32,486 nt of DNA from Candidatus Woesearchaeota archaeon. Lineage in GTDB: Archaea; Nanobdellota; Nanobdellia; Woesearchaeales; JACRKL01. Where the stretch lies: the NCBI GenBank assembly GCA_016219835.1, contig JACRKL010000043.1:1-32486 (forward strand), written 5' to 3'. The translations under genes were made by a program, and so were the position numbers. This document shows, one piece after another, positions 1-32,486 of the stretch. Under the pieces are notes generated by a model. It saw only the letters and a program-made list of their open reading frames with translations. It made no database searches and was not told where the DNA came from. The first letter of the stretch is position 1, and every line of letters starts with the position of its first letter.

Positions 1-139
1 TCTGCTTCTTGGCAGAAGTAAGTCCATTCATAACGATATTGCTGCTGTTGCAGCTTGTGCAGATGAGTTTTGGTGCCATACGCACACCAAATATTTCAAA
101 GAATAAAAATCTTTCGGTCAGTCATTTACTAACACTACC
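1..139. repeat. Left terminal inverted repeat (ITR)
   Basis: The reverse complement of 1-139 equals 32348-32486. It is perfect for 115 nt from the tip, with a single mismatch (g116 vs a32371), and identity is lost at 140/32347. Internal small hairpins: tctgc/gcaga (1-5/12-16) and tttggtg/caccaaa (69-75/85-91). Confidence 0.95.
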
Positions 140-10989: not shown

Positions 10990-11010
10990 GGTGCGGGGTG
11001 GGGAGAAATA

Positions 11011-11020
11011 CTTTAAAAAG
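11011..11020 (-). promoter_or_regulatory. TATA-box-like element upstream of the TrmB-like gene
   Basis: The minus strand reads CTTTTTAAAG, centred ~26-27 nt upstream of the ATG at 10989. The geometry matches the box at 685-692. Confidence 0.35.
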
Positions 11021-11062
11021 ATTCCTTTCATTAAGAGTATATTTGTCGACGCAGGCATAAGC

Positions 11063-11070
11063 TTTATATA
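11063..11070 (+). promoter_or_regulatory. TATA box (TTTATATA) in the divergent intergenic region, upstream of CDS 11119
   Basis: Exact match to the archaeal TTTAWATA-type consensus. The predicted start site at ~11093-11097 would leave a short leader containing the GGGGTGA RBS. The core is near-palindromic, so it could also serve the minus strand. Confidence 0.4.
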
Positions 11071-11118
11071 GCGTTTGCCATTAGTGAGGGAGGAACATAG
11101 GCAGGGGTGAATGGTTGT

Positions 11119-15377: not shown

Positions 15378-15385
15378 GGCTTGTC

Positions 15386-18122: not shown

Positions 18123-18947
18123 ATGACTCTTGAATCCCAACTCAAACATGCTTGGATCCGCATGATCTACCATGACGGCATCAGTGATCTTATATGTGAA
18201 TCGCTGTTTGCAATGCCGGGCTGGGATGATGTCTTTGCGAAGCTGGAAGATCCCTCGCTTCTTTCATTATGGTCTTCTTATATGTCCGCATGGCTTGGCA
18301 ATCCATCAGATCGACAATCGCTCCAAGAGGATCCCGCCTATGCACCTGCTGTTTCCCTCCGGAATCAATATCGCCCTTATCTTCTCTCCATCAAAGAACT
18401 CTTGGACAGCCATGGTGAAGATCATGGCTACTTGCGTGCTTCTTTCTTGAAAGGGCTTGCAGATGCAAACACCACATCAGCGGATGATCCGCTTCCGATA
18501 TTGGTGAGGGAATATCTCGATCTCTATCAGCATACCGAGATGGTATGGTCAGCTCACTCTCCCTCAACAAATAGTTCTGTTGGTCTCTCGTTTAGGGAAT
18601 TTTACCGGGAGAAGAGAGAACGAATGAAGAGCATGCCGTGGGATTTCACCGTCCAGACGCCGTATGGGATCTTCCAACGTCAAGTGAATGATTCCTCGCT
18701 TCAGGTATCCCTCTCAGGAAAGCCCGTTGTTGAAGCCGTTGGTTACCTGATGGCATCCAGTTCTCCACATGATCTGTCGATTCCATTCTTGTATGATCTT
18801 GCTCATGGAAACGCGTTTTACGCGTCTTGTGAAGGCAGCAGCATCGACCGTTCCGTGCCGCTCTTCAACTTCCTGCTCGGCAGGTCAGAGAAAAATGGCA
18901 GGATGGTTTGTGCGATTGAATTGATAACAGGTGAGCACCATGGGTGA
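18123..18947 (+). CDS. Hypothetical protein; C-terminal region resembles the two downstream beta-grasp-like proteins (274 aa)
   Basis: GGTGAT RBS upstream. The C-terminus ...LFNFLLGRSEKNGRMVCAIELITGEHHG parallels ...THFLKIGTSDPYLLCEIRIY and ...PFLLAKHF..KPYRLCEMRMM of the next two products. Confidence 0.6.
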   Translation: MTLESQLKHAWIRMIYHDGISDLICESLFAMPGWDDVFAKLEDPSLLSLWSSYMSAWLGNPSDRQSLQEDPAYAPAVSLRNQYRPYLLSIKELLDSHGEDHGYLRASFLKGLADANTTSADDPLPILVREYLDLYQHTEMVWSAHSPSTNSSVGLSFREFYREKRERMKSMPWDFTVQTPYGIFQRQVNDSSLQVSLSGKPVVEAVGYLMASSSPHDLSIPFLYDLAHGNAFYASCEGSSIDRSVPLFNFLLGRSEKNGRMVCAIELITGEHHG

Positions 18948-19326
18948 ACAAGACTTTTTGCTCTTGCCAGTACAGATTGAGCTGTATTACCAGACTCAGA
19001 TCTATGGCGCTTATTTCCGTCCGGATGAGGAGCAGAAAAAACTGCTGAGAGATATGACCTTGAATGAAGCTATCGCATTCAGCTGGCATCATGCATCATG
19101 CGCCAGAGCAATTCCTGAGCTCAAGGTATTAGTTTCCTATCCTATCGAAGCTCGTGTCTTCCATCATACCTATCGGAAAATGTTCGATGGTTCCGGCACG
19201 TGTCTTGTTGATGAGCTTGCCAGAAGATTTGTTGATCCAACTCATTTCCTGAAGATAGGGACGTCTGATCCTTATCTTCTTTGCGAGATTCGCATCTATC
19301 ATGAAAACAGGAGGGATGTACCATGA
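18940..19326 (+). CDS. Beta-grasp-like protein, paralogue of the 19323 product, no di-glycine (128 aa)
   Basis: ATGGGTGA start/stop overlap with the upstream gene. It aligns with the next product over the whole domain: PVQIELYYQ/PLVIRLYPE, MTLNEAIAFSW/ITIADAVRFAM, LKVLVSY/IKLVIGS, PYLLCEIRIY/PYRLCEMRMM. Confidence 0.55.
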   Translation: MGEQDFLLLPVQIELYYQTQIYGAYFRPDEEQKKLLRDMTLNEAIAFSWHHASCARAIPELKVLVSYPIEARVFHHTYRKMFDGSGTCLVDELARRFVDPTHFLKIGTSDPYLLCEIRIYHENRRDVP

Positions 19327-19763
19327 GTGAAGAAACCATAGATTTAATGACGCAGCCGCTGGTGATACGATTGTATCCGGAAAGTAATCTTACGGGCATT
19401 GAATCAAAGTGCCAAGATGATCGGAGAAAAGGGCTAATAACCATTGCAGACGCTGTTCGATTTGCGATGGAGAATTACCAGAAGACTAGTTATTCGGCAA
19501 CGAATTATAATTCCTTGAAGAAACTCGTAGACAAGCCCAGCGGTATTAAATTAGTTATTGGTTCATCGACCTATGGCTTTAAGGATCTCCATGGTACGAC
19601 TATTTCGACTCCGCCTTTTCTGTTAGCGAAGCATTTCTCTCCTCAGGTCGATCGAGACTTAAAGCCCTATCGTCTTTGTGAAATGAGAATGATGGATGTA
19701 GGAGGAGATGTATTAGGAGGGTTGTATGGATCAGACTTATCTGACCGAATTGGCTCGAAGTAA
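19323..19763 (+). CDS. Candidate ubiquitin-like modifier precursor (146 aa)
   Basis: ATGA overlap and AGGAGGG RBS. The strand-helix-strand pattern is compatible with a beta-grasp fold. The terminal strand YRLCEMRMMDV is followed by G127-G128 (nt 19701-19706) and an 18-aa tail containing a second LGG. It lies directly upstream of the E2-like/JAB/E1 genes. Confidence 0.5.
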   Translation: MSEETIDLMTQPLVIRLYPESNLTGIESKCQDDRRKGLITIADAVRFAMENYQKTSYSATNYNSLKKLVDKPSGIKLVIGSSTYGFKDLHGTTISTPPFLLAKHFSPQVDRDLKPYRLCEMRMMDVGGDVLGGLYGSDLSDRIGSK

Positions 19764-20916
19764 TCTGGTGCTTATCGCACTGGATCGAATCTTTGAAGTA
19801 AGCATGAAGGGATCTCATCATCCCTTTTGGTGCAACTTCTCAGGTCAATACTGTGGATTGAGGGAGTCGGAGATGATCCGCTACTTTGAGAACCAGCTGA
19901 TGACTCCTTTGCTTTTCAAGGATTCTTCCGTTCCCCAGATAATCGAAACGCTTGGTCAGCTTAACGGACGCATAGCTAACGCACAAAAAAAGATGGAACG
20001 GAATGCTCTTGAAGCATTTATTGAGAATTTCCTGAATGACTGGAGCATTGGTGGAAGGCTCAAAAAGCAACGGAACACTGATCAGCAACCGATGGAGATT
20101 CCTTCTCTTGATGCATACTCATTCCACGAAGGAGATGGCACAGATTATGTGCTCCAGCGGTTGCTTCCTTCTCCGGGAGCGCTTATAGCAAGTAAGGATG
20201 TTTTCCATTTGGTCCCTTATGATGGCGGAAATACTCGTGTGAATATGGGCGATCAGTCTTTCTCTCTACGATACCATACCTCGTTAGCAGAACTCGAGAA
20301 ATCCTACACCCGTGAGCTTTCAAAACATTGCTCACATAAACAAACCATCTTGATAAATCAGTACCAGTCCATTGCACAATCTCTTGAACGGATGATTACG
20401 GAGATTGAAGCATCTAGTGTTCCTGCAGAAAATGCGAGGGGCGAGGTTGGCTGGTTCAAGGAAGACGGCAATTACTATCTGTACATTGTAAAGGATAATT
20501 TCACACTGGAAGAGGAGGGGATCGTTTGCAGATTCCCTTCTTGCAAGTTAGGGGTTCGGTTGATCTTGACTGGAAAAACGATCAGTTATGATTCTAATTC
20601 AAGTACTGGGGCAACACGTATATTCTTTTCTCGCAGTATTAAAGATGGCAAAGAAGTCGGTGATATGCAGAGTCTCAAGAATGGAGTATATAAACATCCA
20701 GCAACTACTACTAACGGGAGCGTTCCTTACCCCTACTTATGCGTAAGCGGCACCAATCTACCTAAACCCTCCGAAACTCTTTCATCTGCTGCATGCCTAC
20801 GAACAGTACTCTCAAAACTCCATCTGGTCATTGAGCATGGGTATCATGGAGGAACAGTGCACGTATATCGTCATCTCAGTGACTCTTCATTTGAACCGTT
20901 CAAGGTGAGGCCATGA
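19726..20916 (+). CDS. Hypothetical protein; possible E2 (UBC-fold)-like C-terminal domain (396 aa)
   Basis: GGAGGG RBS 5 nt upstream. In residues ~215-375, a helix, four strand-like segments, then YKHP-x13-LC(339)VSG and a following helix (LSSAACLRTVLSKLHLVIE) resemble the E2 HPN...Cys active-site layout. Its position between the Ubl and JAB/E1 genes supports the call. The CDS is confident; the function is tentative. Confidence 0.4.
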   Translation: MDQTYLTELARSNLVLIALDRIFEVSMKGSHHPFWCNFSGQYCGLRESEMIRYFENQLMTPLLFKDSSVPQIIETLGQLNGRIANAQKKMERNALEAFIENFLNDWSIGGRLKKQRNTDQQPMEIPSLDAYSFHEGDGTDYVLQRLLPSPGALIASKDVFHLVPYDGGNTRVNMGDQSFSLRYHTSLAELEKSYTRELSKHCSHKQTILINQYQSIAQSLERMITEIEASSVPAENARGEVGWFKEDGNYYLYIVKDNFTLEEEGIVCRFPSCKLGVRLILTGKTISYDSNSSTGATRIFFSRSIKDGKEVGDMQSLKNGVYKHPATTTNGSVPYPYLCVSGTNLPKPSETLSSAACLRTVLSKLHLVIEHGYHGGTVHVYRHLSDSSFEPFKVRP

Positions 20917-22943
20917 GGACTCTCCATAATCTGAGACAGCCGATCCATGGTGAAGAAATCAACGTAGCAACTACCCCTATGGAGAAACTAATGACGATTG
21001 CTGAGATCATGGACTTTCTGGAGTTCCGCGTTATTTCCTTGTCTTATCCTGGGCCTTATGAACGCGTCATTCAGGATTTTTATATCCCGTATCAGAAAGT
21101 GACCGGGGCATCTGCTGATCACGATGATCTTGATGTCATTGAGGATTATTCCCTTCTGCGCAACAACGGGTTTCGTATCCTTGGCATCGCACACGGTCAT
21201 GGTAAATTTCAACCATTCCACTCTGCAAAAGATGACGAGGCAATCGAAAAGGTATTATTACGTTCGTGGGATCACCAAAAACAGCTGAACCACATTTATT
21301 TTAGTCTCGCCAATGGACTTGAAGAGATGGATGAGCAACATCTCTCGATTACCGGGTTTAATGAAATGGACTTTACCCTAATGATGGATTGGTCGCGGCA
21401 GGCTACAAATAAGACATTCTGTACAGAGGAAGTAACTAAGATCAAGGAAAATCTACGGGGAAGGACATTGAAGAGTCTTCGTGGTGAAGTCTCTAGTCTG
21501 GTTGTCAACGGTACTGCAAGGGATATCTATGCGATGAAACGCATTCGCGAGGATCATTTCATCTTCTTTCCAGATGACAAAGATATGTATCGTGAGATCC
21601 AGAACCAATCTCGTGCTCAATTTGTTCGTGAGGGCAATAGTGTCCGATACAGCCTTGAGACTGCAGTTGTGCAGAGGGATGATATTCAGCTGGATGGATT
21701 TCAAGTAGATCTTCTCGTTGAAGAATTACGGGAGAAGGTGCAGGTCTGTGGCAATCGCGTTCCGGAGGCATTACGGAAGTCATATGCACTATATGGTCGA
21801 GAACAGGCGTATGCTCCAGATAGAAGTCTTGAGCGTTGGGGGTATCATATCCCGGTTATTCAGAAATCGGCGTTCGAGCAGCCGATTATTGAACTGCCAG
21901 TCATTGCACCGCCAAGAACCGATGGACTGGAAGATCACCTTGTTGCACCAGAGTTTCGTTCATTAGACGATGGAACTCTCCATCAACCGACTACTGATGG
22001 AGATAATATCCTGGTTTCAGAACCCCATGAACAGAACGTAGACGTTTCATCTCTCAAACCGCTAGCGACCGATGAGAATCTTCCTGCCATTGCTGTTCCG
22101 TTAGAAGTGGCTGAATGCAAAGCACCAGTGGTAGTGCATATTCCTATTTATGCTCCGCCTGGTTCCGAAATCCCTATCGAAGTTCCTATCCGGGTAGTAT
22201 CACCAACTGCTCATGCAGAGGTATTGCATCCTGCAACTCCTGCGAATACAACTCTAGATGGTAATCTCCATACGGATCTGGAATTATTCAGTCAATACAC
22301 TGAAGAGATTCATGGGAAACCGACCATTGAAGCGATCATCGGCAAACCAAACATGGCATCTCCTGAACCAGATCTTTTGCCAGAGAATTCTGTTGAGCTT
22401 TCACCTCTAGTTGTTGCTCCATCCCCTTTTGTTCCTGCACATTCTATTGCTCAAGCTACCACTGCTCCGGAAGCAGCTCCTGTTCCAAGAGTCTATGCTA
22501 TGATCCAATGCGATCCAGAAGATCGGCATGCGGATGTTGTTCGTTGTTATGAGGAGTTATTCATTCAACAGGATGACTATGTTTTACGTTCAAGTTTACT
22601 TCATAACCTTCAATCAATGTATGGCGAAGTACAAAGAGATTATCCTTCGATGAGAGTTCTGTTAGATCCGTTAGAGGGGCTCATTGAGCGTGTCTCTTCC
22701 AAACTCTCCCAAGCCAAGACATTTCAGCATTCCATCAAAGATCGTGCATCAGAGAAAGAGCGACTCCATGGCTTTGGGAAATTAACTTCATCTGACTTTC
22801 AGGAGCTGTTGCGCCTTCGTAATGGATTCTGCCAGTTAGGTCACTATGATCGAGCAGCAGATTTGCAGAAACTAGTGGTGGGAATTCAGAACCATGAAGG
22901 TATTTACCCCTTAGTGCATGCCGGAGCGGATAAGCATGGTTGA
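20913..22943 (+). CDS. JAB/MPN+ (JAMM) metalloprotease domain protein with long Pro-rich and helical C-terminal extension (676 aa)
   Basis: E37, then ~57 aa, then H94-G-H96-x7-S104-x2-D107 (ILGIAHGHGKFQPFHSAKDD, nt 21192-21233), an exact HxHx7Sx2D JAMM signature. ATGA overlap with the upstream gene. Confidence 0.85.
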   Translation: MRTLHNLRQPIHGEEINVATTPMEKLMTIAEIMDFLEFRVISLSYPGPYERVIQDFYIPYQKVTGASADHDDLDVIEDYSLLRNNGFRILGIAHGHGKFQPFHSAKDDEAIEKVLLRSWDHQKQLNHIYFSLANGLEEMDEQHLSITGFNEMDFTLMMDWSRQATNKTFCTEEVTKIKENLRGRTLKSLRGEVSSLVVNGTARDIYAMKRIREDHFIFFPDDKDMYREIQNQSRAQFVREGNSVRYSLETAVVQRDDIQLDGFQVDLLVEELREKVQVCGNRVPEALRKSYALYGREQAYAPDRSLERWGYHIPVIQKSAFEQPIIELPVIAPPRTDGLEDHLVAPEFRSLDDGTLHQPTTDGDNILVSEPHEQNVDVSSLKPLATDENLPAIAVPLEVAECKAPVVVHIPIYAPPGSEIPIEVPIRVVSPTAHAEVLHPATPANTTLDGNLHTDLELFSQYTEEIHGKPTIEAIIGKPNMASPEPDLLPENSVELSPLVVAPSPFVPAHSIAQATTAPEAAPVPRVYAMIQCDPEDRHADVVRCYEELFIQQDDYVLRSSLLHNLQSMYGEVQRDYPSMRVLLDPLEGLIERVSSKLSQAKTFQHSIKDRASEKERLHGFGKLTSSDFQELLRLRNGFCQLGHYDRAADLQKLVVGIQNHEGIYPLVHAGADKHG

Positions 22944-24447
22944 TTTCAGTCGGCAGGAAGTCATCTGGGGGAAAGCAGGTCAGGAAGTTCTTGCATCCAC
23001 CAATCTTGTCGTTCTTGGGGCAGAGAATCTCGGCAGGGAAATCGTGAAGTCTGCTGCAATTCTCGGTATCGGGGAAGTTGGCAAAGGGAAAATTCATGTC
23101 GCTTCCAATTATCGTGCTACTGCTGCTGATATGTTCCTAGATCTCCCATTTGAAGAGGGCAGTTTAGTCGTCCGAAGCCTTCCTTCGATGATCTCCCGTC
23201 TGAATCCTACTACGTCAATCATTCCGTTTCATGGTGATCCAACAGTTCATTACCTTTCCCATCTAGGCACCATTGATGGTATCATTTCCACCGTTAATGA
23301 TCCTCGTATACAGGAGTTGGTATTGGAGTATGCTTCATCCAAGAAAATTCCTCTCTTCCTGCTTTCAACTGATCTTTGTAAAGGGACGTTGTCTCCCGGG
23401 ATTGACCGTATAGCTGGTTATGATGGTAGTATCCAAGGAACTATCGTAAGCAATATCTTCGCTGGCGTAACTCTGGAAGAATGCCGGAAACAATTATTTC
23501 TGAAGAACCAACGTAAATTTAAGGACACTCGTGTGATGCTGAGGGATGGAACCATTCAAGAATATTTTAAGGTTATTGGTGATGATATCCGTCTTGACCG
23601 TGCGTTCACGTATTCCATCAATGGTGATCGCATGGGTCAAGGGTCGGAATGGATGCTTGGTGAGGGCGACCTTTCAGGGAAGAAGATTATGATCTTAGGT
23701 GGCGGTGCAATCGGCAATTATGTTGCTGATATCCTTGCTCGGTTTTTCCCTTCTCGCTTGGACGTTGTTGATTTTGATGTTTATGAAGAACACAATCTTA
23801 ACCGACAGCCGCTTGCGTATGGTCAGATTGGACGAAAAAAAAGCGAGGTTCTTGCTGAACGAATCCGAACGATCAGCCGGGGGAAAACTGCATCTCAGGC
23901 ATTCTTTGCCAAGATTGAAGAATCCAGCTCCAGCAAGGAAGCATATCGGTCTATTGGCCGTTCATGGCTCGAGTTACATCCTTATGACCTGCTGGTAGGA
24001 TGCTTTGACCGATTTGACGTCCGGAAGTTTGTTCATGAATGTGCTCTCACTTTACAGACGCCCTATGCGGATTTAGGTTCTTCTCCCCAAGGTGGCAGGG
24101 TTAATCTCTATGTTCCGGGAAAGACTCGGTGCCTTGATTGCAGTTACGGCATTCATCAGGTCTATGCAAATGATGTGATTCTGAGGACCAAACATGAAGC
24201 CGCCAGGGCTCGTGTTGTTGCAGGTAACCCTTCAGGGATAGATCATCTTCACTGCCGTGATGTAGAAGGAAGTGTGAACATGAGTAACCAGATCGTTGCC
24301 GGACTCTTTGCCGGTGAAATGAGAAAAGTATTCTCCTCCGATTATGGGAATATCTGCGACTTCTTGAAATACCGAGGGGAAAGTGGCATGAAGATTCAGT
24401 GGGAACCAGATACTAAACCTTGTTCTTGTTCGGGGAGGAAATCATGA
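22936..24447 (+). CDS. ThiF/MoeB/E1-like Ubl-activating enzyme with tandem inactive plus active adenylation domains (503 aa)
   Basis: The C-terminal half carries MILGGGAIGNYVADIL (nt 23698-), DVVDFDVYEEHNLNRQ, then CLDC and later CSC (Zn-site-like). The N-terminal half has the same fold pattern (FSRQEVIWGKAGQEVL..NLVVLGAENLG...) but degenerate nucleotide-binding motifs. ATGGTTGA overlap with the JAB gene; ATG at 22918 is an alternative start. Confidence 0.85.
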   Translation: MVDFSRQEVIWGKAGQEVLASTNLVVLGAENLGREIVKSAAILGIGEVGKGKIHVASNYRATAADMFLDLPFEEGSLVVRSLPSMISRLNPTTSIIPFHGDPTVHYLSHLGTIDGIISTVNDPRIQELVLEYASSKKIPLFLLSTDLCKGTLSPGIDRIAGYDGSIQGTIVSNIFAGVTLEECRKQLFLKNQRKFKDTRVMLRDGTIQEYFKVIGDDIRLDRAFTYSINGDRMGQGSEWMLGEGDLSGKKIMILGGGAIGNYVADILARFFPSRLDVVDFDVYEEHNLNRQPLAYGQIGRKKSEVLAERIRTISRGKTASQAFFAKIEESSSSKEAYRSIGRSWLELHPYDLLVGCFDRFDVRKFVHECALTLQTPYADLGSSPQGGRVNLYVPGKTRCLDCSYGIHQVYANDVILRTKHEAARARVVAGNPSGIDHLHCRDVEGSVNMSNQIVAGLFAGEMRKVFSSDYGNICDFLKYRGESGMKIQWEPDTKPCSCSGRKS

Positions 24448-26960
24448 TTCCCTCATCTGCCCGTAAGCACCTTCATGACATCTTCATGAAGGATCATGCA
24501 GAGGTTGAAGAAGTCATCGCAGCTTACCATGCAAAGGATCTTGACCGGCTTTCATTTAGTCTTAAAGCAATTCGTCCATGCACTGAACCAGTCTCTTTGG
24601 AAGGCATTACAGCATCTCTTCTTTATGGTCGCATCAAGAATCATGCATCATCTTCAGCAGGCATGCTGCAACGGCTTGATTTTACTGAAGGTTTGCTCTA
24701 TCAACATGTTGTGGATTATCTTCCCTGGGCAACAACTGCAGGCAAAGTTCCTGCAAAGGATGCCATTATGTTAGAAGCTTTGCTCTTTGACGCTGCGGCA
24801 TCTTCCTATGCTGCATTTATCAAAGAAGCTGAACGCATCCTGCAAGAGGGAGGATTGCATGATGCACGTTCATTCCCCCTTGACGATGCGGTGAGTTGGT
24901 GCTATACCTTTGCACAACGGCTATCTTCTGCAAAGAAAGAATCCGATCATCGCAAACCAACGACAAAGCAGCAGCAAACGTATAGAACAAATCCAACGGT
25001 TGAGCTTGCTGCTGATCTGTTCATTGGACTCTTGACAACGCAGGAAGCAGTATCGCTGGTTGGATCCCTTCCCGAAAAACAGGACGCGAAACGACTGCTG
25101 TTGTTTGATGCTCTGTTTTCGTATCTCCGGCAAGAAGCTCCACAGATATACTCCTATATTGATCACACCCTGCGGAATGCAGGGTTGTATTCTTCAGCAG
25201 ATCCAGCTTCCATTCGAAAAAACGTACCACTCTTTGTCCCTTCACTTCTCTCTTCACTTCAAGAGTCTCTGCATTCTCCGCATTTGCCCGCAAGAGAACT
25301 TCAACTTCTTGCACCACTGCAAGTTATGCATTCTGCACTGGTTGACTTGCAGCAAAAAACCAAGAAGGAGATCGAGAGCATGTATAGTGATATTTCTTCT
25401 GGAAAGATCCCCTATGAAGACATCATTGCCATGCCTCAGAAAAGATCTATAGACTTATTTATTTCAGCATATGCGCAGGGAGATATACATCTTGCCATGA
25501 CCGGGTCTGCTCTCTACTGCCTGCTTGTTGAGGGCACCTCGGATGATCCTCAGTTATGCGATGGTCTTGTCAAAAGTGCAACGGACTATTGCAGGAGAAC
25601 TGCACAAACTGTCCCTATATTATTCAATGGAAGCATATCCGAGGAATCTGTTGGCAAACTCGCCAACCATTTGGAAATGCTTTCTTCGATGAACAAATTT
25701 ACTGCTCTTAGCAGCGTGAGTGATGCACATGCTGAGGTTTTTCTTAAGGAACGTCATGCTGCAAACGTTGCGGTTGATGAACAAAAGAAGAAGATTATCG
25801 ATTTGATCTTCCCAACTCACCATGCAGCAGAGGGATACTCTAGGCGGGGATGTCACAACTATGCTGACTGGAAGATGCAGAATGACTTCATGAGCAATAC
25901 GTTGCCATTCCTGAAAAGCCCATCGGTGGTTTCCACGTATGCGAGACTCATCGACGATGAGGTTATTGAATTTGAACCCGGTGCTTGGCTCATTCCTCCC
26001 ATGACCGATCTTGAAACAAAGATCGCCAACCTTGAAGTTGTAGCTCAAGAGATCAACGATAACCTCTCCGCCTATGCCTCTTCCTCTGCAGATCGGCGCC
26101 ATCATCTGCAGGAGACTGAGCAAGGTATCACCGCTCTCCTCAAGCAGCTTCTCACCGTTTCATACGGTGATGCCTCTCGAGTTTGTGATGTTCAAAAGAT
26201 CCTGCAGGATGGTCTTGCTTACCTCCATTCCTGCGTGTCTGATGAAGGCTCACCCGAGTACGAGTCAGCAAAGAATGCGATCTATGCAGGTGTTATCCTG
26301 GCTGATCAGAGAAAGAACGAAATCCTGTCTGAAGCTGCGGTAGAAGTGCAACGCATCAGAGAGTCACTCATTCCTTACGGTCTCTATAGTCAGGAGGCAG
26401 ATGCATTGCGTGAAGAACGAATGCTGCTCGATGACATTGCATCTGCGTATGCTGCACTTGATGCATCATCGGGACAACAAGAACTGCTTTCTACAACCAT
26501 CTCGCAAGTGGAATCGCTCAGCGAACTGATCCAGAAGACCGTAAGCCAGAGATCAGACCTGCTCATGGAGGTACAACTGCATCTCAAGCCGATAGCTACA
26601 AGAATCAAAAGCCTTGCGAAACACAAGCAGAATTATGCCACTCTTTCCCAGATTGCATACCAGTACCGTAAGTTGGTTGAAGTAGAATCTAGAGTTCCAA
26701 GATGTTTGGAGCACGACCAGCAGCTTCGTCAGACCTATAACCAGATCATCGAGCAGATTGCAGATACGCGGCAAACGGCAGAACAGCGGCTTGGAGAAAT
26801 GGAAGCGAGAGTTTCTTCATCTCTTCAATCGCTTCGAGGCGGACTTGAGGAACTGCATGGAAATTTTGAACTGGGTTCATACATGACGCTGCGTGATTCT
26901 TTTTCTGAACAGCAAAAACTCTATGGGGTTCTACAGCAGGCACGGGGTGGTCATTCATGA
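24444..26960 (+). CDS. Large alpha-helical hypothetical protein (838 aa)
   Basis: GGGGAGGAA RBS and ATGA overlap with the E1 stop. Long helix-rich ORF with no TM helix and no motif recognised. Confidence 0.7.
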   Translation: MIPSSARKHLHDIFMKDHAEVEEVIAAYHAKDLDRLSFSLKAIRPCTEPVSLEGITASLLYGRIKNHASSSAGMLQRLDFTEGLLYQHVVDYLPWATTAGKVPAKDAIMLEALLFDAAASSYAAFIKEAERILQEGGLHDARSFPLDDAVSWCYTFAQRLSSAKKESDHRKPTTKQQQTYRTNPTVELAADLFIGLLTTQEAVSLVGSLPEKQDAKRLLLFDALFSYLRQEAPQIYSYIDHTLRNAGLYSSADPASIRKNVPLFVPSLLSSLQESLHSPHLPARELQLLAPLQVMHSALVDLQQKTKKEIESMYSDISSGKIPYEDIIAMPQKRSIDLFISAYAQGDIHLAMTGSALYCLLVEGTSDDPQLCDGLVKSATDYCRRTAQTVPILFNGSISEESVGKLANHLEMLSSMNKFTALSSVSDAHAEVFLKERHAANVAVDEQKKKIIDLIFPTHHAAEGYSRRGCHNYADWKMQNDFMSNTLPFLKSPSVVSTYARLIDDEVIEFEPGAWLIPPMTDLETKIANLEVVAQEINDNLSAYASSSADRRHHLQETEQGITALLKQLLTVSYGDASRVCDVQKILQDGLAYLHSCVSDEGSPEYESAKNAIYAGVILADQRKNEILSEAAVEVQRIRESLIPYGLYSQEADALREERMLLDDIASAYAALDASSGQQELLSTTISQVESLSELIQKTVSQRSDLLMEVQLHLKPIATRIKSLAKHKQNYATLSQIAYQYRKLVEVESRVPRCLEHDQQLRQTYNQIIEQIADTRQTAEQRLGEMEARVSSSLQSLRGGLEELHGNFELGSYMTLRDSFSEQQKLYGVLQQARGGHS

Positions 26961-29900
26961 CAACGCTGGAAGAACAGTTCAGCCAGCTGGAAGCGATGAT
27001 CCAAGAATCTGATAATTTCGCAAGGCATAGGCTTACTGAAGAGATGAAGAGTCTCTTGGAATTTCCTAGTGGACCGTTGTATAGCCAGGACATTCCTGCT
27101 ATTCGTGCGCAGATGAAAAAAGCAAGCTCTCTGGAACGGTGCGCAAGAAAGTTATCGGTTGAGCATGCTTCCTTGGGATCATGGAAATCCTCGATGAGCC
27201 AGAAGGTGGGATCCTTTCAGCAGGAATTCAAGAACCAAGAATCTGCTCTTGCATCGACGGTAAAGACCCTTCATGAACTCGAGGAAACAGTTAATGCAGT
27301 ACCGGATGCAACCCGCCCCATGCATGCCCTTCATTGGATGGATGCTGTTGAGGCATTGCAGCATCAGAAGGAAGATAAGCTTAGTGTATATGCTCCATGG
27401 AAAGATGACGTGCACCTCCGAGTGCGTATTGAACTCATAGAACAACGGCTTGCAGATGCCAGAAAAATCTACGATGCCCATCGGCTGGAGCTTGCGTCTT
27501 CTTCTCGTGCATATCTCACGACTGCAACAACGGTTTCTGGTTCCTTGACCTTGGACGCTGTTGCGAAGCAGCAAGCCCTTCAGAAGAAGGCTGCGCCATA
27601 TCGTGAGTTGCTGCAACGAACTTCCCCTGCGGACAATGAGGGGGGAGATTATGCATCACTCCTCTCTGCATATGTTACAGGGATACATGCTCGTATCATT
27701 GAGGAACTTGACGGACTGTCGCAACGATGTAACCTAACTTATATCCCTCATCAGGAACTGCCTGACTTCAAAGAACAAATTACTCGGGTAAAAGAACTCC
27801 GCAACATTTCACGCCTGCTTTCCATAGACGGGCTGCCCTTTAAGGAAATGATCCATCACGCCAAAACGCTCATCTCTTCATCAGCCAGAGAACGCAAACG
27901 CCGCGCTCAGGTGATCGCATCAATAGACGATGCTGCACAGCAGGTTTTTACGTCTGTTGCATCAGACGACTGGCGTTCCATACTTGCTTCTTATCACACG
28001 CTGCTGGGCATGAAGTACCCTGATGAAACATGGAAGCTGGATGATACACTTGCTCGAGATGTTGAACGATATGTAACAACGCGGAGAGATCATGCCTCGC
28101 AATTGCTTTCCATGCTGTGGGAGTCAGCCAGAGCATATCATCAGCATCAGAAGGATGCGATCGTTAGTGTTGAGTCTCTGCTTACTCGCCCGATCATTGC
28201 AGAGTACGTCTCTGCATTTTCTAACGAAAAGAAACGATGGTTGGAGAACGGCAAAGATCTTGGTGAGTTATTGCAGCATCTCCCTCCATCTGGTGAAAAC
28301 CTTTCCCCGTCATGGGGTCAGCAGGAGATCGCAGCGTATGATCTTCGTCTTGCAAAACTTCCGGAAGAACTGGATTTTCTTGACCAGCAGATTGATGATG
28401 TGCACTGGTATCACCAGCGCGAGCAGCTTGATGGCATAGCACAGCGGGTTACCGAAATCAAAGCAGTCTATACGCTTCTTAGCCTCCCTGAAGAGATGCC
28501 TGCTTCACTGCTCGAAAAAGTAACGGAGGCCACATCACTCATTGCATCTGCCTATGACACCCATCAGCGTGCCTTAACAACGTTAGCACAGGAGCTTGAT
28601 GTGATGCAGAGAGAAACCGCTGACGTAGACGGAGCATCACTCTATCCGCTGTTTTCTCGTTTGGAGAACATCTGGGAAAGACTTTCCCCGCTCTATGCAG
28701 AAGAAGCCCTTACCGAGCAGATCAATCATACTGCTGCACATGCTGATACTATCGCTGGAACTCTTGATGGAAAAGTCAAGGCGATGCTTCTTAGCGAGTA
28801 TGCCCGACCGATAAAACAACATGCAGGGAGCATCAGAAAAAATGCAGGAGCAACATCAGCCGACCATGATACGCTTACGGTTGGTGTTCAGGCGCTTGAG
28901 GAGCTGATACCTGCGCTTGCTCAACTCAAACATCCGCGGTATGATCTAATTATTAACCATCTTCTTTATCATACTGAGCAAGCCGTTGCTCTCGGCAGAA
29001 AAAAAATAGCAGAGTATGACGTGCTCTTTGCAGATCGAAAACAGATGCTGGAAACAGAAGCGGTTCAGCTCGAGCAGCTGTATTTCCGCGCTGCTGCTAT
29101 TGCTTCGAATGACTTCTTTGCCAACGCCGCTTTTTTAAAAGAATGGTTGGCCTTGGGCGAAGCATTTTTCTCTCGGCTGTTGGGTGAGACGCCGGCATGG
29201 AAGAAAGATCCTGCCTTTGTGAATGACACACATCGGATTGAAGAGGCAAGTGAGATGCTCGGTTCTGTGATAACCGGTATAGGAAATACGCTTGAAACTG
29301 ATGCTCGTGCCTCGCATGAGGAGTTTTCCCGTCTTGTTCAGTTGCCGTGTTTGACCTCTTCAGATACATGGGCACTCCAGTTTGCGAAAGGAGTTTATTG
29401 TTTACTGGTTGATGCTCTCAAGTCCATTGAGCCAACAGATCTTGGTGTGGAATCCTCAGCGGCGAGATTTATGGACGACCATCTCACCAGCATCGTCAAA
29501 GAGTCTCCTTCCCTTCTCATTGCTGCCGATGCTGCCATTGCTTCATACGATCTTGCTGTTGCAGCTGATAGGAAAAAGATTGCGGACATCCAGCAGAAAT
29601 TATCGCAGCTCTATTTTCCAACAATTGAAGAGAAAAAATACCGTGATCCTGCAGATATTTCCTTGCCGAAGAGAGGGATAACTCTGGCTACGTATGGTAC
29701 CACTTTACAAAATCTCCTTGAGCAATATGCTTCTTTGTCGCCTAGAAAAGAAGATGATGCTCTGCGTGATGAACTCAGGGCTATAGATGAGCAGATGTTC
29801 CGCCAGATAAAATCCTATCATCAGATGGTGAAGCCGGTGATCAATCAGTTGCGAGTGGAATATCAGGCACAGGAGAAAGCTGCAACTGCTTTGCAAGAGC

Positions 29901-30040
29901 AAGGTATTGGAATCATGCATCCACTCCGCAATAGGCAGTACCAATCTCTGCAGCGGGAAGTTGACGAAAAGAAAGCATACCTGCAACCCCTGACTACGAT
30001 CTTAGGAAATCTGCGCCGACTGTCGGAGGTACTTTCATGA
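26957..30040 (+). CDS. Very large alpha-helical / coiled-coil hypothetical protein (1027 aa)
   Basis: ATGA overlap with the upstream gene. Uninterrupted 3.1-kb ORF with helix-rich, E/L/A/Q-rich composition. No motif recognised. Confidence 0.7.
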   Translation: MTTLEEQFSQLEAMIQESDNFARHRLTEEMKSLLEFPSGPLYSQDIPAIRAQMKKASSLERCARKLSVEHASLGSWKSSMSQKVGSFQQEFKNQESALASTVKTLHELEETVNAVPDATRPMHALHWMDAVEALQHQKEDKLSVYAPWKDDVHLRVRIELIEQRLADARKIYDAHRLELASSSRAYLTTATTVSGSLTLDAVAKQQALQKKAAPYRELLQRTSPADNEGGDYASLLSAYVTGIHARIIEELDGLSQRCNLTYIPHQELPDFKEQITRVKELRNISRLLSIDGLPFKEMIHHAKTLISSSARERKRRAQVIASIDDAAQQVFTSVASDDWRSILASYHTLLGMKYPDETWKLDDTLARDVERYVTTRRDHASQLLSMLWESARAYHQHQKDAIVSVESLLTRPIIAEYVSAFSNEKKRWLENGKDLGELLQHLPPSGENLSPSWGQQEIAAYDLRLAKLPEELDFLDQQIDDVHWYHQREQLDGIAQRVTEIKAVYTLLSLPEEMPASLLEKVTEATSLIASAYDTHQRALTTLAQELDVMQRETADVDGASLYPLFSRLENIWERLSPLYAEEALTEQINHTAAHADTIAGTLDGKVKAMLLSEYARPIKQHAGSIRKNAGATSADHDTLTVGVQALEELIPALAQLKHPRYDLIINHLLYHTEQAVALGRKKIAEYDVLFADRKQMLETEAVQLEQLYFRAAAIASNDFFANAAFLKEWLALGEAFFSRLLGETPAWKKDPAFVNDTHRIEEASEMLGSVITGIGNTLETDARASHEEFSRLVQLPCLTSSDTWALQFAKGVYCLLVDALKSIEPTDLGVESSAARFMDDHLTSIVKESPSLLIAADAAIASYDLAVAADRKKIADIQQKLSQLYFPTIEEKKYRDPADISLPKRGITLATYGTTLQNLLEQYASLSPRKEDDALRDELRAIDEQMFRQIKSYHQMVKPVINQLRVEYQAQEKAATALQEQGIGIMHPLRNRQYQSLQREVDEKKAYLQPLTTILGNLRRLSEVLS

Positions 30041-31491: not shown

Positions 31492-32369
31492 ACCCTGAAG
31501 ATAGAAAACAAAAGCTGTTGCAGGATCTTGATGAAACACTGGGATCACCAGCAGAGGATCATGGTGGTTACCAGATACCACCTCCTCATCGACGGATATC
31601 ATCGTTCAAACGTACGCTTATCCATGGTGCATGCGTTGGGCTTGCCTCCGGAATATTGGTTGTTGCGTCGAATTATCTGGAGACGCATGATTCGTTCTTT
31701 CCACCTACACCGACTCCTGCTGTTGCTGCGACTCTCACTCCTACATCTACCCCAACTTCATATCCTACACTCACACCTACATCAACTCCAACCATGACAT
31801 CAACGCCGACTCAATATCCTACTTCAACATCCACGCCTACTCCAACTGGGACATCGACACCGATAAGAACTCCTTATCCCGCTCAAACACCCGACCTTTC
31901 TTCTATAACCCGTCTAACAGCTAGAAAAGAGGTGGCTAATGCACTTTTTCATAGCAGTTATCAGGATCTTCTTTTTGAGCCACAGAAACTAACTTTTCTG
32001 AGGTTTGATGCAAGCCTTGCTGCACTCAGAATGAGAGGATATGATCGTCATGCAAGGCCTAGTGAAGAATTCGGATTTATCATCGCAGGGATGGAAGGAA
32101 GACTCTCTGCTGCAGATACCAAAATTGCCGGGGGCATGGTTTTTGATGGTAGAGAATGGCTGAGTATGGCTTATGAAGTCACACAGTCAGGAGGGAAGCA
32201 GTGGCTTACGGTGTACGTTGATCCGACGAACCTTCAGTATAGAATTCTTGAATACCAATGGAACGGCCCTCCTCAGTATTCTGCGTCTAAAAGATATGAG
32301 ATCACCGGTTTACCTCTCAAGAGAATGGTAGACTTGGATAAATTTCCGGTAGTGTTAGTAAATGACTGA
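31488..32369 (+). CDS. N-terminally anchored surface protein: PT linker plus unknown C-terminal domain (293 aa)
   Basis: ATGA overlap. The N-terminal motif RKQKLLQDLDETLG is paralogous to the 30037 product. TM (LIHGACVGLASGILVVA), PT linker (nt ~31701-31892), then a ~150-aa C-terminal domain of unknown type. The last 22 nt lie in the right ITR. Confidence 0.7.
   Translation: MNPEDRKQKLLQDLDETLGSPAEDHGGYQIPPPHRRISSFKRTLIHGACVGLASGILVVASNYLETHDSFFPPTPTPAVAATLTPTSTPTSYPTLTPTSTPTMTSTPTQYPTSTSTPTPTGTSTPIRTPYPAQTPDLSSITRLTARKEVANALFHSSYQDLLFEPQKLTFLRFDASLAALRMRGYDRHARPSEEFGFIIAGMEGRLSAADTKIAGGMVFDGREWLSMAYEVTQSGGKQWLTVYVDPTNLQYRILEYQWNGPPQYSASKRYEITGLPLKRMVDLDKFPVVLVND
31701..31892 (+). repeat. 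Pro/Thr-rich linker-coding low-complexity region (~64 aa)
   Basis: Encodes [64 protein letters not shown]. Confidence 0.85.
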
Positions 32370-32486
32370 CAGAAAGATTTTTATTCTTTGAAATATTTGG
32401 TGTGCGTATGGCACCAAAACTCATCTGCACAAGCTGCAACAGCAGCAATATCGTTATGAATGGACTTACTTCTGCCAAGAAGCAGA
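32348..32486. repeat. Right terminal inverted repeat (ITR)
   Basis: Reverse complement of 1-139 (see left ITR). It overlaps the last 22 nt, including the stop codon, of CDS 31488..32369. Confidence 0.95.
32378..32389 (+). terminator. Oligo-T tract downstream of the last CDS
   Basis: TTTTTATTCTTT begins 9 nt after the stop at 32369. Oligo-T tracts act as archaeal intrinsic terminators. It lies inside the ITR. Confidence 0.25.

What the first reader, a model, noticed from the sequence alone, without database searches (positions are those of the whole stretch)
18123..24447. Apparently complete ubiquitin-like conjugation cassette (beta-grasp x3, E2-like, JAB, two-domain E1) encoded by the linear element
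Six consecutive, start/stop-overlapping genes make up the cassette. (i) 19323..19763 encodes a beta-grasp-like protein whose last strand ends ...LCEMRMMDVGG (G127-G128), followed by an 18-aa tail. (ii) 19726..20916 has a C-terminal region with a YKHP-x13-LCVSG layout resembling the E2 HPN...Cys site. (iii) 20913..22943 carries an exact JAMM signature, E37...H94xH96x7S104x2D107. (iv) 22936..24447 has GGGAIG...DFDVYEEHNLNRQ...CLDC...CSC (ThiF/E1 adenylation domain). The order Ubl-E2-JAB-E1 is, as far as I recall, that of bacterial Bil-type (ISG15-like) antiphage operons, and eukaryote-like Ub cassettes are known in some archaea. This one differs in several ways. It sits on a mobile linear ITR replicon, its E2-like (396 aa) and JAB (676 aa) proteins are much larger, it has three beta-grasp paralogues, and it is chained to two giant helical proteins. 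It could be a defence or counter-defence module, or a system that modifies the element's own or host proteins.
Basis: partly seen in the sequence, partly recalled or inferred. Interest (0 to 1): 0.9.

Follow-up and report, generated by a model that had tools for sequence, protein, structure and literature searches.

The report
Archaeal ubiquitin-like tagging operon, divergent parts
A 32-kb linear DNA element from a tiny archaeon carries a rare four-gene kit that looks built to attach a small ubiquitin-like protein to other proteins. It has a eukaryote-style activating enzyme, and its modifier and carrier proteins match no described family.

Summary
The six ORFs exist as described and are mostly start/stop-coupled. 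Two components are solid.

- **E1 (22918/22936-24447).** It is a single-chain, two-domain E1. It has a degenerate N-terminal ThiF fold, an active adenylation domain, a CxxC+CxC zinc site and an invariant extra Cys446. Its family profile hits eukaryotic UBA1/UBA7/UBA6 best.
- **JAB (20913-22943).** It has a complete JAMM motif that is invariant in 12 relatives.
- **Modifier (19323-19763).** It belongs to a small orphan family found directly upstream of the carrier or the E1 in related loci. Most members carry Gly or Gly-Gly followed by a variable tail. The model has beta-grasp-like strand/helix order, and its best (non-significant) Foldseek hits are mainly ubiquitin-fold domains. Processing is more likely after G132-G133 (VLGG) than after G127-G128.
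- **"E2-like" protein (396 aa).** It belongs to a rare orphan family (26 clusters among 1.8 billion proteins) with a YxHP...Cys339 signature. A confident model matches nothing in PDB. Profile comparison with canonical E2s gives only a weak match, in the correct active-site register and above all controls.
- **Beta-grasp copies.** Only two paralogues are supported, not three.

Gene order equals BilABCD, but Bil membership is not met. This is a new archaeal variant of a known kind of system, and its targets and role are unknown.

The parts
18123..18947 (+). 274-aa accessory protein of unknown function. It is not a supported beta-grasp paralogue.
   Evidence: ORF. Its two halves match two ORFs directly upstream of the Ubl in the closest relative L004 (phmmer 6e-7 and 6e-6; BLASTP 7e-8). 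hhalign against the Ubl family gives probability 0.5%. No Pfam, PADLOC, PHROG or NCBIfam hit.
18931..19326 (+). 131-aa Ubl-family paralogue without a C-terminal Gly (ends ...NRRDVP). It is probably not conjugatable.
   Evidence: BLASTP 2e-5 to the 19323 product. It aligns along its whole length in A2 and A7. Gly-less second copies also occur in L005.
19323..19763 (+). 146-aa pro-Ubl. Folded core is about residues 10-125. V130-L131-G132-G133 lies at nt 19710-19721. The 13-aa tail L134-K146 lies at nt 19722-19760.
   Evidence: Orphan family. AF2 model has pLDDT 79.9 and pTM 0.74, with order b-b-a-a-b-b-b-b and a disordered tail from residue 129. Foldseek PDB best E-value is 0.038, but most top hits are ubiquitin-fold domains: PI3K RBD, DIX, GABARAP, TBCB/TBCE Ubl, FAF1 UBL. 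Gly or Gly-Gly plus a variable tail recurs in homologues.
19716..19720 (+). GGAGG Shine-Dalgarno-like sequence for the E2-like gene, formed by the G132-G133 codons of the Ubl.
   Evidence: The sequence TTAGGAGGGTTGTATG reads directly into ATG 19726.
19726..20916 (+). 396-aa E2-position protein. The N-terminal region (1-230) has two beta-meander + long-helix units. The C-terminal catalytic-candidate domain (about 235-396, nt 20428-20913) carries Y322-K-H324-P325-A (nt 20689-20703) and Cys339 (nt 20740-20742).
   Evidence: Exhaustive phmmer finds only 26 cluster representatives. P325 and C339 are invariant and Y322 and H324 nearly so in diverse members, while C273 is not conserved. Stand-alone ~200-aa versions consist of this domain only. 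AF2 pLDDT is 85.9. No Foldseek, Pfam, PDB or PADLOC match. hhalign against canonical E2s aligns H324/P325 with H75/P76 and C339 with C85 of UBE2D2, scoring 20-24.7 against at most 15.7 in 120 column shuffles.
20913..22943 (+). 676-aa JAMM/MPN+ metalloprotease. The conserved N-terminal region covers about residues 1-290 (nt 20913-21782), with E37, H94xH96, S104 and D107 at nt 21021-21233. A Pro/Ala/Val-rich linker and a conserved C-terminal helical domain follow.
   Evidence: Motif invariant 12/12 (A4). Pfam Prok-JAB scores 19.8 bits, below the 25-bit cut-off. Relatives linked by the family HMM pass it (L010, 35 bits).
22918..24447 (+). E1, 509 aa from ATG 22918 or 503 aa from ATG 22936 as annotated at NCBI. 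It has an inactive adenylation-like domain (about residues 8-235) and an active adenylation domain (about 250-509). Key sites: G261xGxxG266, D285, H292NLNRQ297, K308, zinc Cys 405/408/502/504 and candidate catalytic Cys446 (nt 24253-24255).
   Evidence: ThiF 1.3e-33. The family profile gives eukaryotic UBA1/UBA7/UBA6 as best PDB hits at 1e-17 to 1e-20, with the N-terminal domain aligned to their IAD and to SAE1/NAE1. Invariant residues in 12 divergent members include C405, C408, C446 and C504. It falls below every NCBIfam ThiF/MoeB/UbaA cut-off.
24420..26960 (+). 846-aa low-complexity protein, translationally coupled to the E1 (ATG 24444 overlaps the E1 stop). It may be a partner, scaffold or target.
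   Evidence: ORF; overlap. A protein of more than 800 aa follows the E1 (or the JAB in L015) in L001, L002/L006, L092, L093 and L015, with no sequence similarity among them.
26957..30040 (+). 1027-aa low-complexity protein, joined by ATGA overlaps on both sides.
1..139 (.). Left terminal inverted repeat.
   Evidence: 139 nt, 99% complementary to 32348-32486.
32348..32486 (.). Right terminal inverted repeat.

Best explanation
This is a ubiquitin-like protein-conjugation operon of an undescribed archaeal family. The proposed steps are as follows.

1. The 146-aa protein is made as a precursor. The JAMM protease removes the tail after VLGG (G132/G133). This step is inferred.
2. The single-chain E1 binds it. 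Its C-terminal adenylation domain, completed by the inactive N-terminal domain (conserved R12), adenylates the exposed Gly. Invariant Cys446, in the insert after the CxxC zinc knuckle, then takes it as a thioester. The motifs are shown; the chemistry is inferred.
3. The modifier passes to Cys339 of the 396-aa protein, next to the conserved YxHP loop. That protein acts as the E2, possibly with extra N-terminal domains for substrate or partner binding. This step is inferred.
4. The modifier is transferred to lysines of unknown targets. The JAMM enzyme can also reverse the modification.

The always-adjacent giant low-complexity proteins are candidates for scaffold, E3 analogue or target. The Gly-less paralogue would be a non-conjugatable regulator or decoy.
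For: - **E1 architecture and residues.** ThiF 1.3e-33. The family profile is closest to eukaryotic UBA1/7/6 and aligns to their IAD. In 12 divergent members GxGxxG, D285, HNLNRQ, K308, C405, C408, C446 and C504 are invariant, and R12 is present in 11 of 12. This layout matches BilD as described in PMC10557695.
- **JAB.** The full JAMM motif is invariant 12/12.
- **Ubl.** It sits directly upstream of the E2-like or E1 gene in all complete loci. Gly or Gly-Gly followed by 0-19 variable residues occurs in the primary Ubl of 13 of 14 related loci, and one natural C-terminus lies exactly at that Gly. The model has a disordered tail and a beta-grasp-like order, and its top Foldseek hits are dominated by ubiquitin folds.
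- **E2-like.** P325 and C339 are invariant and H324 nearly invariant. Stand-alone 200-aa forms exist. The profile match to E2 is register-correct and above 120 shuffles, a reversed control and three unrelated families.
- **Operon conservation.** The operon is conserved with variable order in L001-L006, L010-L017, L092 and L093.
- **Coupling.** Genes are tightly translationally coupled.
Against: - No UBC fold was detected for the 396-aa protein despite a confident model.
- The Ubl Foldseek hits are not significant: E-value at least 0.038 and TM-score below 0.5.
- The only Ubl of the widespread L002/L006 operon ends in Asn, not Gly.
- No E3, target or phenotype is known.
- There is no biochemical evidence at all.
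Confidence: 0.62

Rival explanations
1. An E2-independent Ubl system. The E1 activates the modifier and conjugates it directly, as archaeal SAMP/UbaA or Urm1/Uba4 do. The 396-aa protein would be an adaptor, E3-like factor, regulator or principal substrate, not a thioester carrier.
For: No UBC fold or E2 profile hit for the 396-aa protein. Archaeal SAMP systems work without an E2 (established knowledge; PMC4895103 and PMC2948915 listed). Some related loci (L011, L014) show E1 + JAB with no detected E2-like gene.
Against: Cys339 and Pro325 are invariant and His324 nearly so across very divergent members, while other cysteines vary. The domain survives as a stand-alone 200-aa protein next to E1 and Ubl. 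The match to E2 is register-correct and above controls. The E1 carries an invariant crossover-insert Cys typical of thioester-forming E1s that hand over to an E2. The E1 is far below the UbaA model cut-off, 36 against 450 bits.
Confidence: 0.22
2. A sulfur-carrier or small-molecule/peptide biosynthetic pathway. The small protein would be a ThiS/MoaD/CysO-type thiocarboxylate carrier or an MccB-type substrate. The E1 would only adenylate it, and the JAB would be a Mec+-type processing peptidase.
For: The best single-sequence PDB hit of the E1 is MccB (2.4e-9). JAB + ThiF + beta-grasp triads exist in cysteine and siderophore pathways (established knowledge, PMC1779556). The L002-type Ubl ends in Asn, like MccA.
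Against: With the family profile, canonical eukaryotic E1s outrank MccB, MoeB and ThiF by 6-8 orders of magnitude. All ThiF, MoeB and MoeZ equivalog cut-offs are missed by large margins. There is no rhodanese domain, and no ThiG, MoaE, CysM or other biosynthetic gene in the window or in related loci. The pseudo-dimeric IAD-AAD architecture and the conserved Cys-bearing partner protein are unnecessary for sulfur transfer.
Confidence: 0.08
3. A decayed or chance arrangement, in which motif-bearing ORFs do not form a working system.
For: The components are highly divergent and lack database annotation.
Against: Intact, overlapping ORFs. The same four families co-occur in at least 12 independent loci at 20-40% identity, with catalytic residues invariant.
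Confidence: 0.02

Closest known systems
Type II BilABCD (CEHH/6C) bacterial ubiquitination operons (Chambers et al., PMC10557695)
   Same: Gene order is Ubl-E2-JAB DUB-E1. [quoted passage not shown] A Cys-bearing insert lies in the crossover loop. Zinc is bound by CxxC plus a C-terminal CxC. The Ubl is made with a short non-conserved tail after a conserved Gly, which the JAB removes.
   Different: - No Bil/PADLOC, Pfam or NCBIfam model recognises the Ubl or the E2-position protein.
- The BilB signature is Cys...Glu..His...His, with the catalytic His after the Cys, in a ~150-aa UBC fold. Here the signature is YxHP before the Cys, in a 396-aa multidomain protein with no detectable UBC fold.
- The E1 lacks the Pfam Prok-E2_C-annotated N-domain hit, and its insert is about 38 aa rather than about 80 aa.
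- The Ubl is 131-171 aa with extra helices.
- The hosts are archaea or archaeal elements, not Rhizobiaceae.
- A protein of more than 800 aa follows the E1 (the JAB in L015) in every locus whose contig extends past it.
Type I BilABCD (ISG15-like) antiphage system (Hor et al., 10.1101/2023.09.04.556158)
   Same: Four-component Ubl/E2/JAB/E1 logic and gene order.
   Different: Type I BilA has two beta-grasp domains. Its function (tagging the phage central tail fibre) is shown only in bacteria. There is no sequence-level relationship here beyond the ThiF and JAMM cores.
Canonical eukaryotic E1s (UBA1/UBA6/UBA7; heterodimeric SAE1-SAE2, NAE1-UBA3)
   Same: They are the best profile matches in PDB. 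The architecture is IAD + AAD pseudo-dimer. The N-terminal (Y/F)SRQ motif is present. A catalytic Cys lies after the crossover CxxC.
   Different: This E1 is half the size (503-509 aa). It has no FCCH/SCCH half-domains and no C-terminal ubiquitin-fold domain.
Caldiarchaeum subterraneum / Asgard eukaryote-like Ub-E1-E2-RING-Rpn11 clusters (PMC3082918, PMC5654768)
   Same: Archaeal operons that combine a Ubl, E1, E2 and a JAMM protease.
   Different: Those components are readily recognised as ubiquitin, UBC and RING by standard profiles. Here the Ubl and the E2-position protein are orphan families, and no RING protein is present.
Archaeal SAMP/UbaA and Urm1 systems
   Same: Archaeal Ubl activated by a ThiF-type E1. 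A JAMM protease is associated.
   Different: Those use a single-domain homodimeric E1 and no E2, and they double as sulfur carriers. This E1 scores 36 bits against the 450-bit UbaA cut-off.
Bub operons (PMC11601596), e.g. the Sinorhizobium plasmid locus L090
   Same: Divergent bacterial Ubl/E1/E2 operons.
   Different: Bub uses oxyester chemistry, an E1 lacking a catalytic Cys, a DUF6527 E2 and a Ser-His protease. Here conserved cysteines and a JAMM protease are present.

Membership tests
BilABCD (types I/II) | Gene order Ubl-E2-JAB-E1 | tested here: met
   Order 19323 / 19726 / 20913 / 22918, conserved in L001-L004, L092 and L093. Order given in PMC10557695.
BilABCD (types I/II) | E1 with IAD + AAD + Cys insert, and Zn bound by CxxC plus a C-terminal CxC | tested here: met
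   Tested at sequence level only. No structure was predicted for the E1.
BilABCD (types I/II) | E2 (BilB) with UBC fold, catalytic Cys and adjacent downstream His (CEHH in type II) | tested here: not met
   The conserved motif is YxHP upstream of the Cys, and there is no E/H/H after Cys339. No UBC hit by Foldseek.
BilABCD (types I/II) | Recognisable sequence homology of all four proteins to Bil families | tested here: not met
   PADLOC gives no hit for the Ubl, E2-like or JAB proteins, and the E1 hits only Cap2-type E1-E2 models among the 25 shown. I could not confirm that Bil models are in that library version.
BilABCD (types I/II) | Antiphage activity | not testable with these tools
   Needs an experiment.
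JAMM/MPN+ metalloproteases | E...HxH...S..D metal-binding and catalytic motif | tested here: met
   E37, H94, H96, S104 and D107 are invariant 12/12.
JAMM/MPN+ metalloproteases | Pfam Prok-JAB/JAB gathering score | tested here: inconclusive
   The window protein scores 19.8 bits, below the 25-bit cut-off. Relatives L010 (35 bits) and L014 (27.5 bits) pass and are linked by the family HMM at 1e-18 and 6e-12.
E1 / ThiF superfamily, canonical two-domain type | ATP-binding GxGxxG, Asp, Arg finger and Lys of the adenylation domain | tested here: met
E1 / ThiF superfamily, canonical two-domain type | Catalytic Cys in or after the crossover loop | tested here: met
   C446 is invariant 12/12, 38 residues after CxxC. 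Its position was not verified in three dimensions.
E1 / ThiF superfamily, canonical two-domain type | FCCH/SCCH and C-terminal ubiquitin-fold domain of eukaryotic UBA1-type E1s | tested here: not met
   The protein ends 5 residues after the CxC zinc ligands and is 503-509 aa long.
UBC/E2 superfamily | HPN-type loop followed by a catalytic Cys, after a beta-meander and before a long helix | tested here: inconclusive
   HP[A/F] lies 9-15 residues before the invariant Cys. DSSP order is strands, then loop, then helix 354-375. The hhalign register is correct, with P 0.0045-0.056 and scores above 120 shuffles and controls. Asn is replaced by Ala or Phe.
UBC/E2 superfamily | UBC fold or Pfam UQ_con/Prok-E2 profile | tested here: not met
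   No Pfam hit in 4 + 5 + 3 members. No PDB sequence hit. No E2 among the top 50 Foldseek hits.
Ubiquitin-like beta-grasp modifiers | Beta-grasp fold | tested here: inconclusive
   The model's secondary-structure order is compatible. Most top-50 Foldseek hits are ubiquitin-fold domains, but the E-value is at least 0.038 and TM-scores are 0.3-0.48.
Ubiquitin-like beta-grasp modifiers | Flexible C-terminal tail ending in, or processed to, Gly or Gly-Gly | tested here: met
   Window VLGG + 13 aa, with pLDDT below 50 from residue 129. The same pattern holds in homologues. Exception: L002 ends in Asn.
ThiS/MoaD-ThiF/MoeB sulfur-carrier systems; SAMP/UbaA | Orthology of the E1 to ThiF/MoeB/UbaA, and presence of sulfur-transfer partners | tested here: not met
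   All NCBIfam equivalog cut-offs are missed (e.g. 67.8 against 275 bits, and 36 against 450 bits). There are no partner genes.

The most novel reading that the evidence does not exclude
The 396-aa protein family is a previously unseen kind of Ubl carrier. It would be either an extremely diverged UBC core or a convergent fold that reinvented the HP-loop/Cys site, fused to extra domains that replace an E3. The whole operon would be an independent, archaeal, partly mobile-element-borne lineage of eukaryote-like ubiquitination. It already has the single-chain IAD-AAD E1 thought typical of eukaryotes and Bil. It would be used by small linear elements of DPANN and other archaea to tag host, rival-virus or their own giant scaffold proteins.
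Probability: 0.3. Interest if true: 0.85.

Novelty: new variant of a known kind. Interest (0 to 1): 0.68.

Why it matters
- **Domain range.** Complete E1/E2/DUB/Ubl cascades outside eukaryotes are known from a few archaeal lineages with easily recognisable components, and from the bacterial Bil, Bub and CBASS systems. This operon would add an archaeal family whose E1 is closest to eukaryotic E1s and has the IAD-AAD pseudo-dimer. Its modifier and carrier are invisible to all current profile libraries.
- **Evolution of ubiquitination.** That widens the known sequence space, and perhaps fold space, of ubiquitin-type conjugation. It bears on where the eukaryotic E1 architecture arose.
- **Mobile elements.** It shows such systems riding on small linear elements of DPANN-type archaea, where defence or counter-defence biology is almost unexplored.
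- **Testability.** The system has four small, clearly delimited genes with predicted catalytic residues: Cys446, Cys339, the JAMM site and Gly132/133.

Tried and rejected
- **Word-indexed homologue search with the E2-like protein.** It found only itself.
- **Concatenated Ubl+E2+JAB alignment.** I used this to recover three families in one search. It returned nothing and consumed the last search of that kind.
- **Structure prediction with locus-derived sequences.** I worked around this with representative-search hits and cluster look-ups.
- **The search for related loci with the E2-like alignment.** The E1 alignment was used instead.
- **IMG/VR scan.** It gave only one weak partial E1 hit. Phage blastn gave nothing.
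- **Exact look-up of the JAB protein.** It is not on record.
- **Foldseek of the E2-like model.** Neither PDB nor BFVD gave a usable match.
- **PDB profile searches.** Searches with the E2-like (full length and C-domain) and JAB families gave nothing.
- **Search for a Bil type II operon on plasmids.** I wanted a BilB sequence for direct profile comparison. It yielded a Bub operon and a ThiF/multiubiquitin pair instead, so I abandoned it.
- **Third beta-grasp in 18123-18947.** Rejected on hhalign. A loose pattern resemblance remains (xxAVxYLM helix, last strand ...VCAIELITGEHHG ending in Gly).
- **Sequence relationship among the giant downstream proteins.** None was detected.

Full report
**What the window is.** The 32,486-bp window is a whole contig deposited as 'Candidatus Woesearchaeota archaeon' (locus tags HZB02_...). 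It has 139-nt terminal inverted repeats with one mismatch. GC content is about 46% with no tRNA. Nearly all genes lie on the + strand. The region 18123-24447 holds six ORFs of 274, 131, 146, 396, 676 and 509 aa. They overlap by 17, 4, 38, 4 and 26 nt. ATGA-type overlaps continue into two large downstream genes of 846 and 1027 aa.

**E1 (22918 or 22936 to 24447).** Pfam ThiF scores 1.3e-33 over residues 251-475.

Three full-length homologues (30-38% identity) were found by protein search. Eight more distant two-domain relatives came from the metagenome scan.

In 12 sequences the following are invariant: G261xG263xxG266, D285, D287, H292-N-L-N-R-Q297, K308, D364, C405, C408, C446, N457, E467 and C504. 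R12 is present in 11 of 12.

The N-terminal half (about residues 8-235) is a second ThiF-like fold whose nucleotide loop is degenerate (G34-AENL-G39). A profile of the family gives eukaryotic UBA1, UBA7 and UBA6 as best PDB matches (2e-20 to 1e-14). Residues 4-200 align to their N-terminal inactive adenylation domain and to SAE1/NAE1. MoeB, ThiF and MccB score 6-8 orders of magnitude worse. The single-sequence search had put MccB first.

The protein misses every NCBIfam ThiF, MoeB, MoeZ and UbaA cut-off by a wide margin.

The layout is IAD + AAD, a Cys-bearing insert after the CxxC, and a CxC five residues from the C-terminus. This is the layout reported for BilD of type II Bil operons (PMC10557695). 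I conclude that it is a thioester-type, canonical-architecture E1 and not a sulfur-carrier adenylase.

**JAB (20913-22943).** Pfam Prok-JAB scores only 19.8 bits against a 25-bit cut-off. However, E37, H94, H96, S104 and D107 are invariant in 12 family members. Distant members linked by the family HMM (1.7e-18, 6e-12) pass the Pfam threshold. After the conserved region of about 290 residues come a Pro/Ala/Val-rich linker and a C-terminal helical domain shared with L001 and L002.

**The modifier (19323-19763).** No library recognises this protein. It belongs to a small family of 131-171-aa proteins. These are encoded immediately upstream of the E2-position gene, or of the E1 where that gene is elsewhere, in every locus whose sequence reaches that far.

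The product of 18931-19326 is a paralogue (BLASTP 2e-5). The product of 18123-18947 is not detectably one (hhalign probability 0.5%). Its two halves instead match two ORFs upstream of the Ubl in L004.

The C-termini are informative. After the last strand (...LCE-M-R122...) the homologues read as follows:
- PLGG|LEAALR (L004)
- PLGG|IEDRLSN (L005)
- DLG|DE (L001)
- TLG-stop (L003)
- FDQG|TDK and QYGGG|KNGK (L092)
- FIQG|AAQ... (L093)

In the distant branch they read QEGG|NSRWY, ISGG|RMALY, AVGG|K, KEGG|RAVTH... and KEG-stop.

The window's V130-L131-G132-G133 is in register with these. Processing after G132/G133, leaving a 13-aa tail, is therefore more likely than after G127-G128. Incidentally, the G132-G133 codons (GGAGGG) form the GGAGG upstream of the E2-like start codon.

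An AF2 model built on 10 family members has pLDDT 79.9 and pTM 0.74. Its order is strand-strand-helix-helix-strand-strand-strand-strand, with a disordered tail from residue 129. Foldseek against PDB gives no significant match (best E 0.038). Most of the top 50 hits are ubiquitin-fold domains: PI3K Ras-binding domain, DIX, GABARAP, TBCB/TBCE Ubl, FAF1 UBL1, ELMO RBD and staphylococcal superantigen-like beta-grasp. TM-scores are 0.3-0.48 on the target. The fold is thus compatible with an enlarged beta-grasp but is not proven.

**The E2-position protein (19726-20916).** The word-indexed search found only the protein itself. The exhaustive phmmer scan of 1.84 billion representatives found 26 clusters. 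No Pfam, PADLOC, PHROG, NCBIfam or PDB-sequence hit exists for the window protein, for 11 relatives or for family profiles.

In the close family C273 and C339 are both nearly invariant. In the wider family, which includes E1/JAB-linked members of L007, L010, L013, L015 and L017, only Y322-x-H324-P325 and C339 persist.

In L012 and L016 the family occurs as stand-alone proteins of about 200 aa that correspond only to the C-terminal domain (...YNHPFVLDGNEIC...RW...). L012 also has a Cys-less paralogue.

An AF2 model on 23 sequences is confident (pLDDT 85.9). It shows two units of four-stranded meander plus long helix. A C-terminal beta domain follows, and after it come the HP loop, Cys339 and a 22-residue helix. 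Foldseek finds nothing in PDB (best E 0.38, no E2 in the top 50) or in BFVD.

They always return one local alignment in the catalytic register: H324/P325 on H75/P76 and C339 on C85 of UBE2D2. P-values are 0.0045-0.056 and HH probabilities only 1-8%. The scores (24.7 and 20.0) exceed all 120 column shuffles (maxima 15.7 and 14.4). They also exceed the reversed alignments (11.8, 15.9) and the Ubl, JAB and E1 families used as negative controls (12.4-14.4).

I therefore treat it as the functional E2 candidate, with a real possibility that it is either an extremely diverged UBC or a different fold.

**Distribution and context.** The four-gene module occurs in these places:
- JGI metagenome contigs L001, L002, L003 and L004.
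- A Bathyarchaeota MAG (L005).
- A Methanosarcinales MAG contig that is the same element as L002 (L006).
- A second Woesearchaeota MAG (L017).
- A 32,084-bp Logan contig (L092). It also shares a 37%-identical TrmB regulator and two tandem Ubl paralogues with the window.
- A 169-kb contig with ordinary cellular neighbours (L093).

The L002-type Ubl is seen on contigs up to 153 kb, next to cellular genes. The module is therefore not confined to small elements. In the distant branch the gene order varies: E2-like-E1-JAB, or Ubl-E1-JAB.

A protein of more than 800 aa, rich in L/E/K/Q/A/S, follows the E1 (the JAB in L015) in every locus whose contig extends beyond it. There is no detectable sequence similarity among these proteins. 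IMG/VR and GenBank phages hold no relative. I found no paper in the searchable library that describes this family.

**Mechanism and rivals.** The best-supported reading has four steps:
1. JAMM processing of the pro-Ubl.
2. Adenylation and Cys446 thioester formation on the E1.
3. Transfer to Cys339 of the 396-aa protein.
4. Conjugation to unknown targets.

I put confidence in this at about 0.62. Motifs and operon logic are shown; every chemical step is inferred.

The main rival (about 0.22) is an E2-independent system in which the 396-aa protein is an adaptor or substrate. The invariant HP...Cys, the stand-alone domain form and the E2-register match argue against it. A sulfur-carrier or MccB-like pathway (about 0.08) is disfavoured by the E1 architecture, the missed equivalog cut-offs and the absence of partner enzymes. 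The one odd fact in its favour is that the L002-type Ubl ends naturally in Asn where the others have Gly.

**Comparison and novelty.** The system works like BilABCD, especially type II: it has the same gene order, the same E1 layout and a tail-processed Ubl. It fails the membership tests that could be run. There is no CEHH motif or UBC fold in the E2 position, and no profile-level homology of the Ubl or E2. It also differs in the much larger accessory domains, the archaeal hosts and the obligatory giant partner. I rate it a new variant of a known kind.

Biological role is open. It could be defence, counter-defence or modification of the element's own giant proteins. The neighbouring PP2C/kinase pair and the beta-helix surface proteins give no direct clue.

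Noticed in passing
window 1-139 and 32348-32486: 139-nt terminal inverted repeats with a single mismatch sit at the exact contig ends. This is consistent with a complete linear replicon. No protein-primed polymerase or capsid gene was recognised.
   Followed up: partly
window 13127-14068 and 14025-15377: Overlapping PP2C-family phosphatase and Ser/Thr protein kinase genes lie on the same strand upstream of the cassette (Pfam 2e-14 and 3e-32).
   Followed up: no
window 15374-16531, 16544-18106, 30037-31491, 31455-32369: Four proteins share a plan: a coiled-coil N-terminus (near-identical LEERLKETFQRLKEREAAEAA in two of them), a hydrophobic segment and a Thr/Pro-rich linker. At least 16544-18106 and 30037-31491 then have beta-helix-like Gly/Asn-rich repeats, and 16544-18106 has a NosD hit. 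They bracket the cassette and its giant partners.
   Followed up: no
window 10264-11211 (-) and L092:2747-3520: The only sizeable minus-strand gene is a TrmB-family regulator. It is 37% identical (2e-54) to the TrmB on a second ~32-kb contig (Logan SRR7589087) that carries the same cassette. This suggests a family of related ~32-kb elements.
   Followed up: partly
window 19713-19728: The codons for L131-G132-G133 (TTA GGA GGG) contain the GGAGG that sits 5 nt upstream of the E2-like start codon. The putative processing site and the ribosome-binding site of the next gene are therefore the same nucleotides.
   Followed up: yes
L002:6355-6765 (= L006 element; protein P0032, seen in 55 collection blocks): The only Ubl of this widespread operon ends naturally in ...QINN, exactly where the others have Gly. 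The window paralogue 18931-19326 ends in Pro at the same position. C-terminal Asn recalls the MccB substrate MccA. This is unexplained.
   Followed up: partly
L012:4947-5561, L016:7326-7985, L012:1826-2422: These are stand-alone ~200-aa versions of the E2-like C-terminal domain (YNHPFV...IC...RW). L012 also has a paralogue in which the Cys is replaced (…NTID…), reminiscent of UEV-type inactive E2 variants.
   Followed up: partly
window 24420-30040; L001:11566-14745; L006:4741-8031; L092:14090-17350; L093:14664-18887: A protein of 800-1400 aa, rich in L/E/K/Q/A/S, follows the E1 wherever the contig extends past it. These proteins share no detectable sequence similarity. Position is conserved without sequence conservation.
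   Followed up: partly
window 2789-3541, 5178-6782, 6784-8301: An Mrr-type restriction endonuclease domain, an AAA ATPase and a P-loop ATPase matching phrog_12057 (3e-11) lie in the left arm. AAA ATPases also lie upstream of the cassette in L001, L002-type and L093 loci, but they are not detectably orthologous to the window's.
   Followed up: no
L090 (Sinorhizobium alkalisoli plasmid NZ_CP034911.1, 185471-188094): A plasmid tblastn hit of the E1 turned out to be a Bub-type operon (multiubiquitin-domain protein, ThiF, DUF6527). It is unrelated to this family beyond the ThiF core.
   Followed up: no
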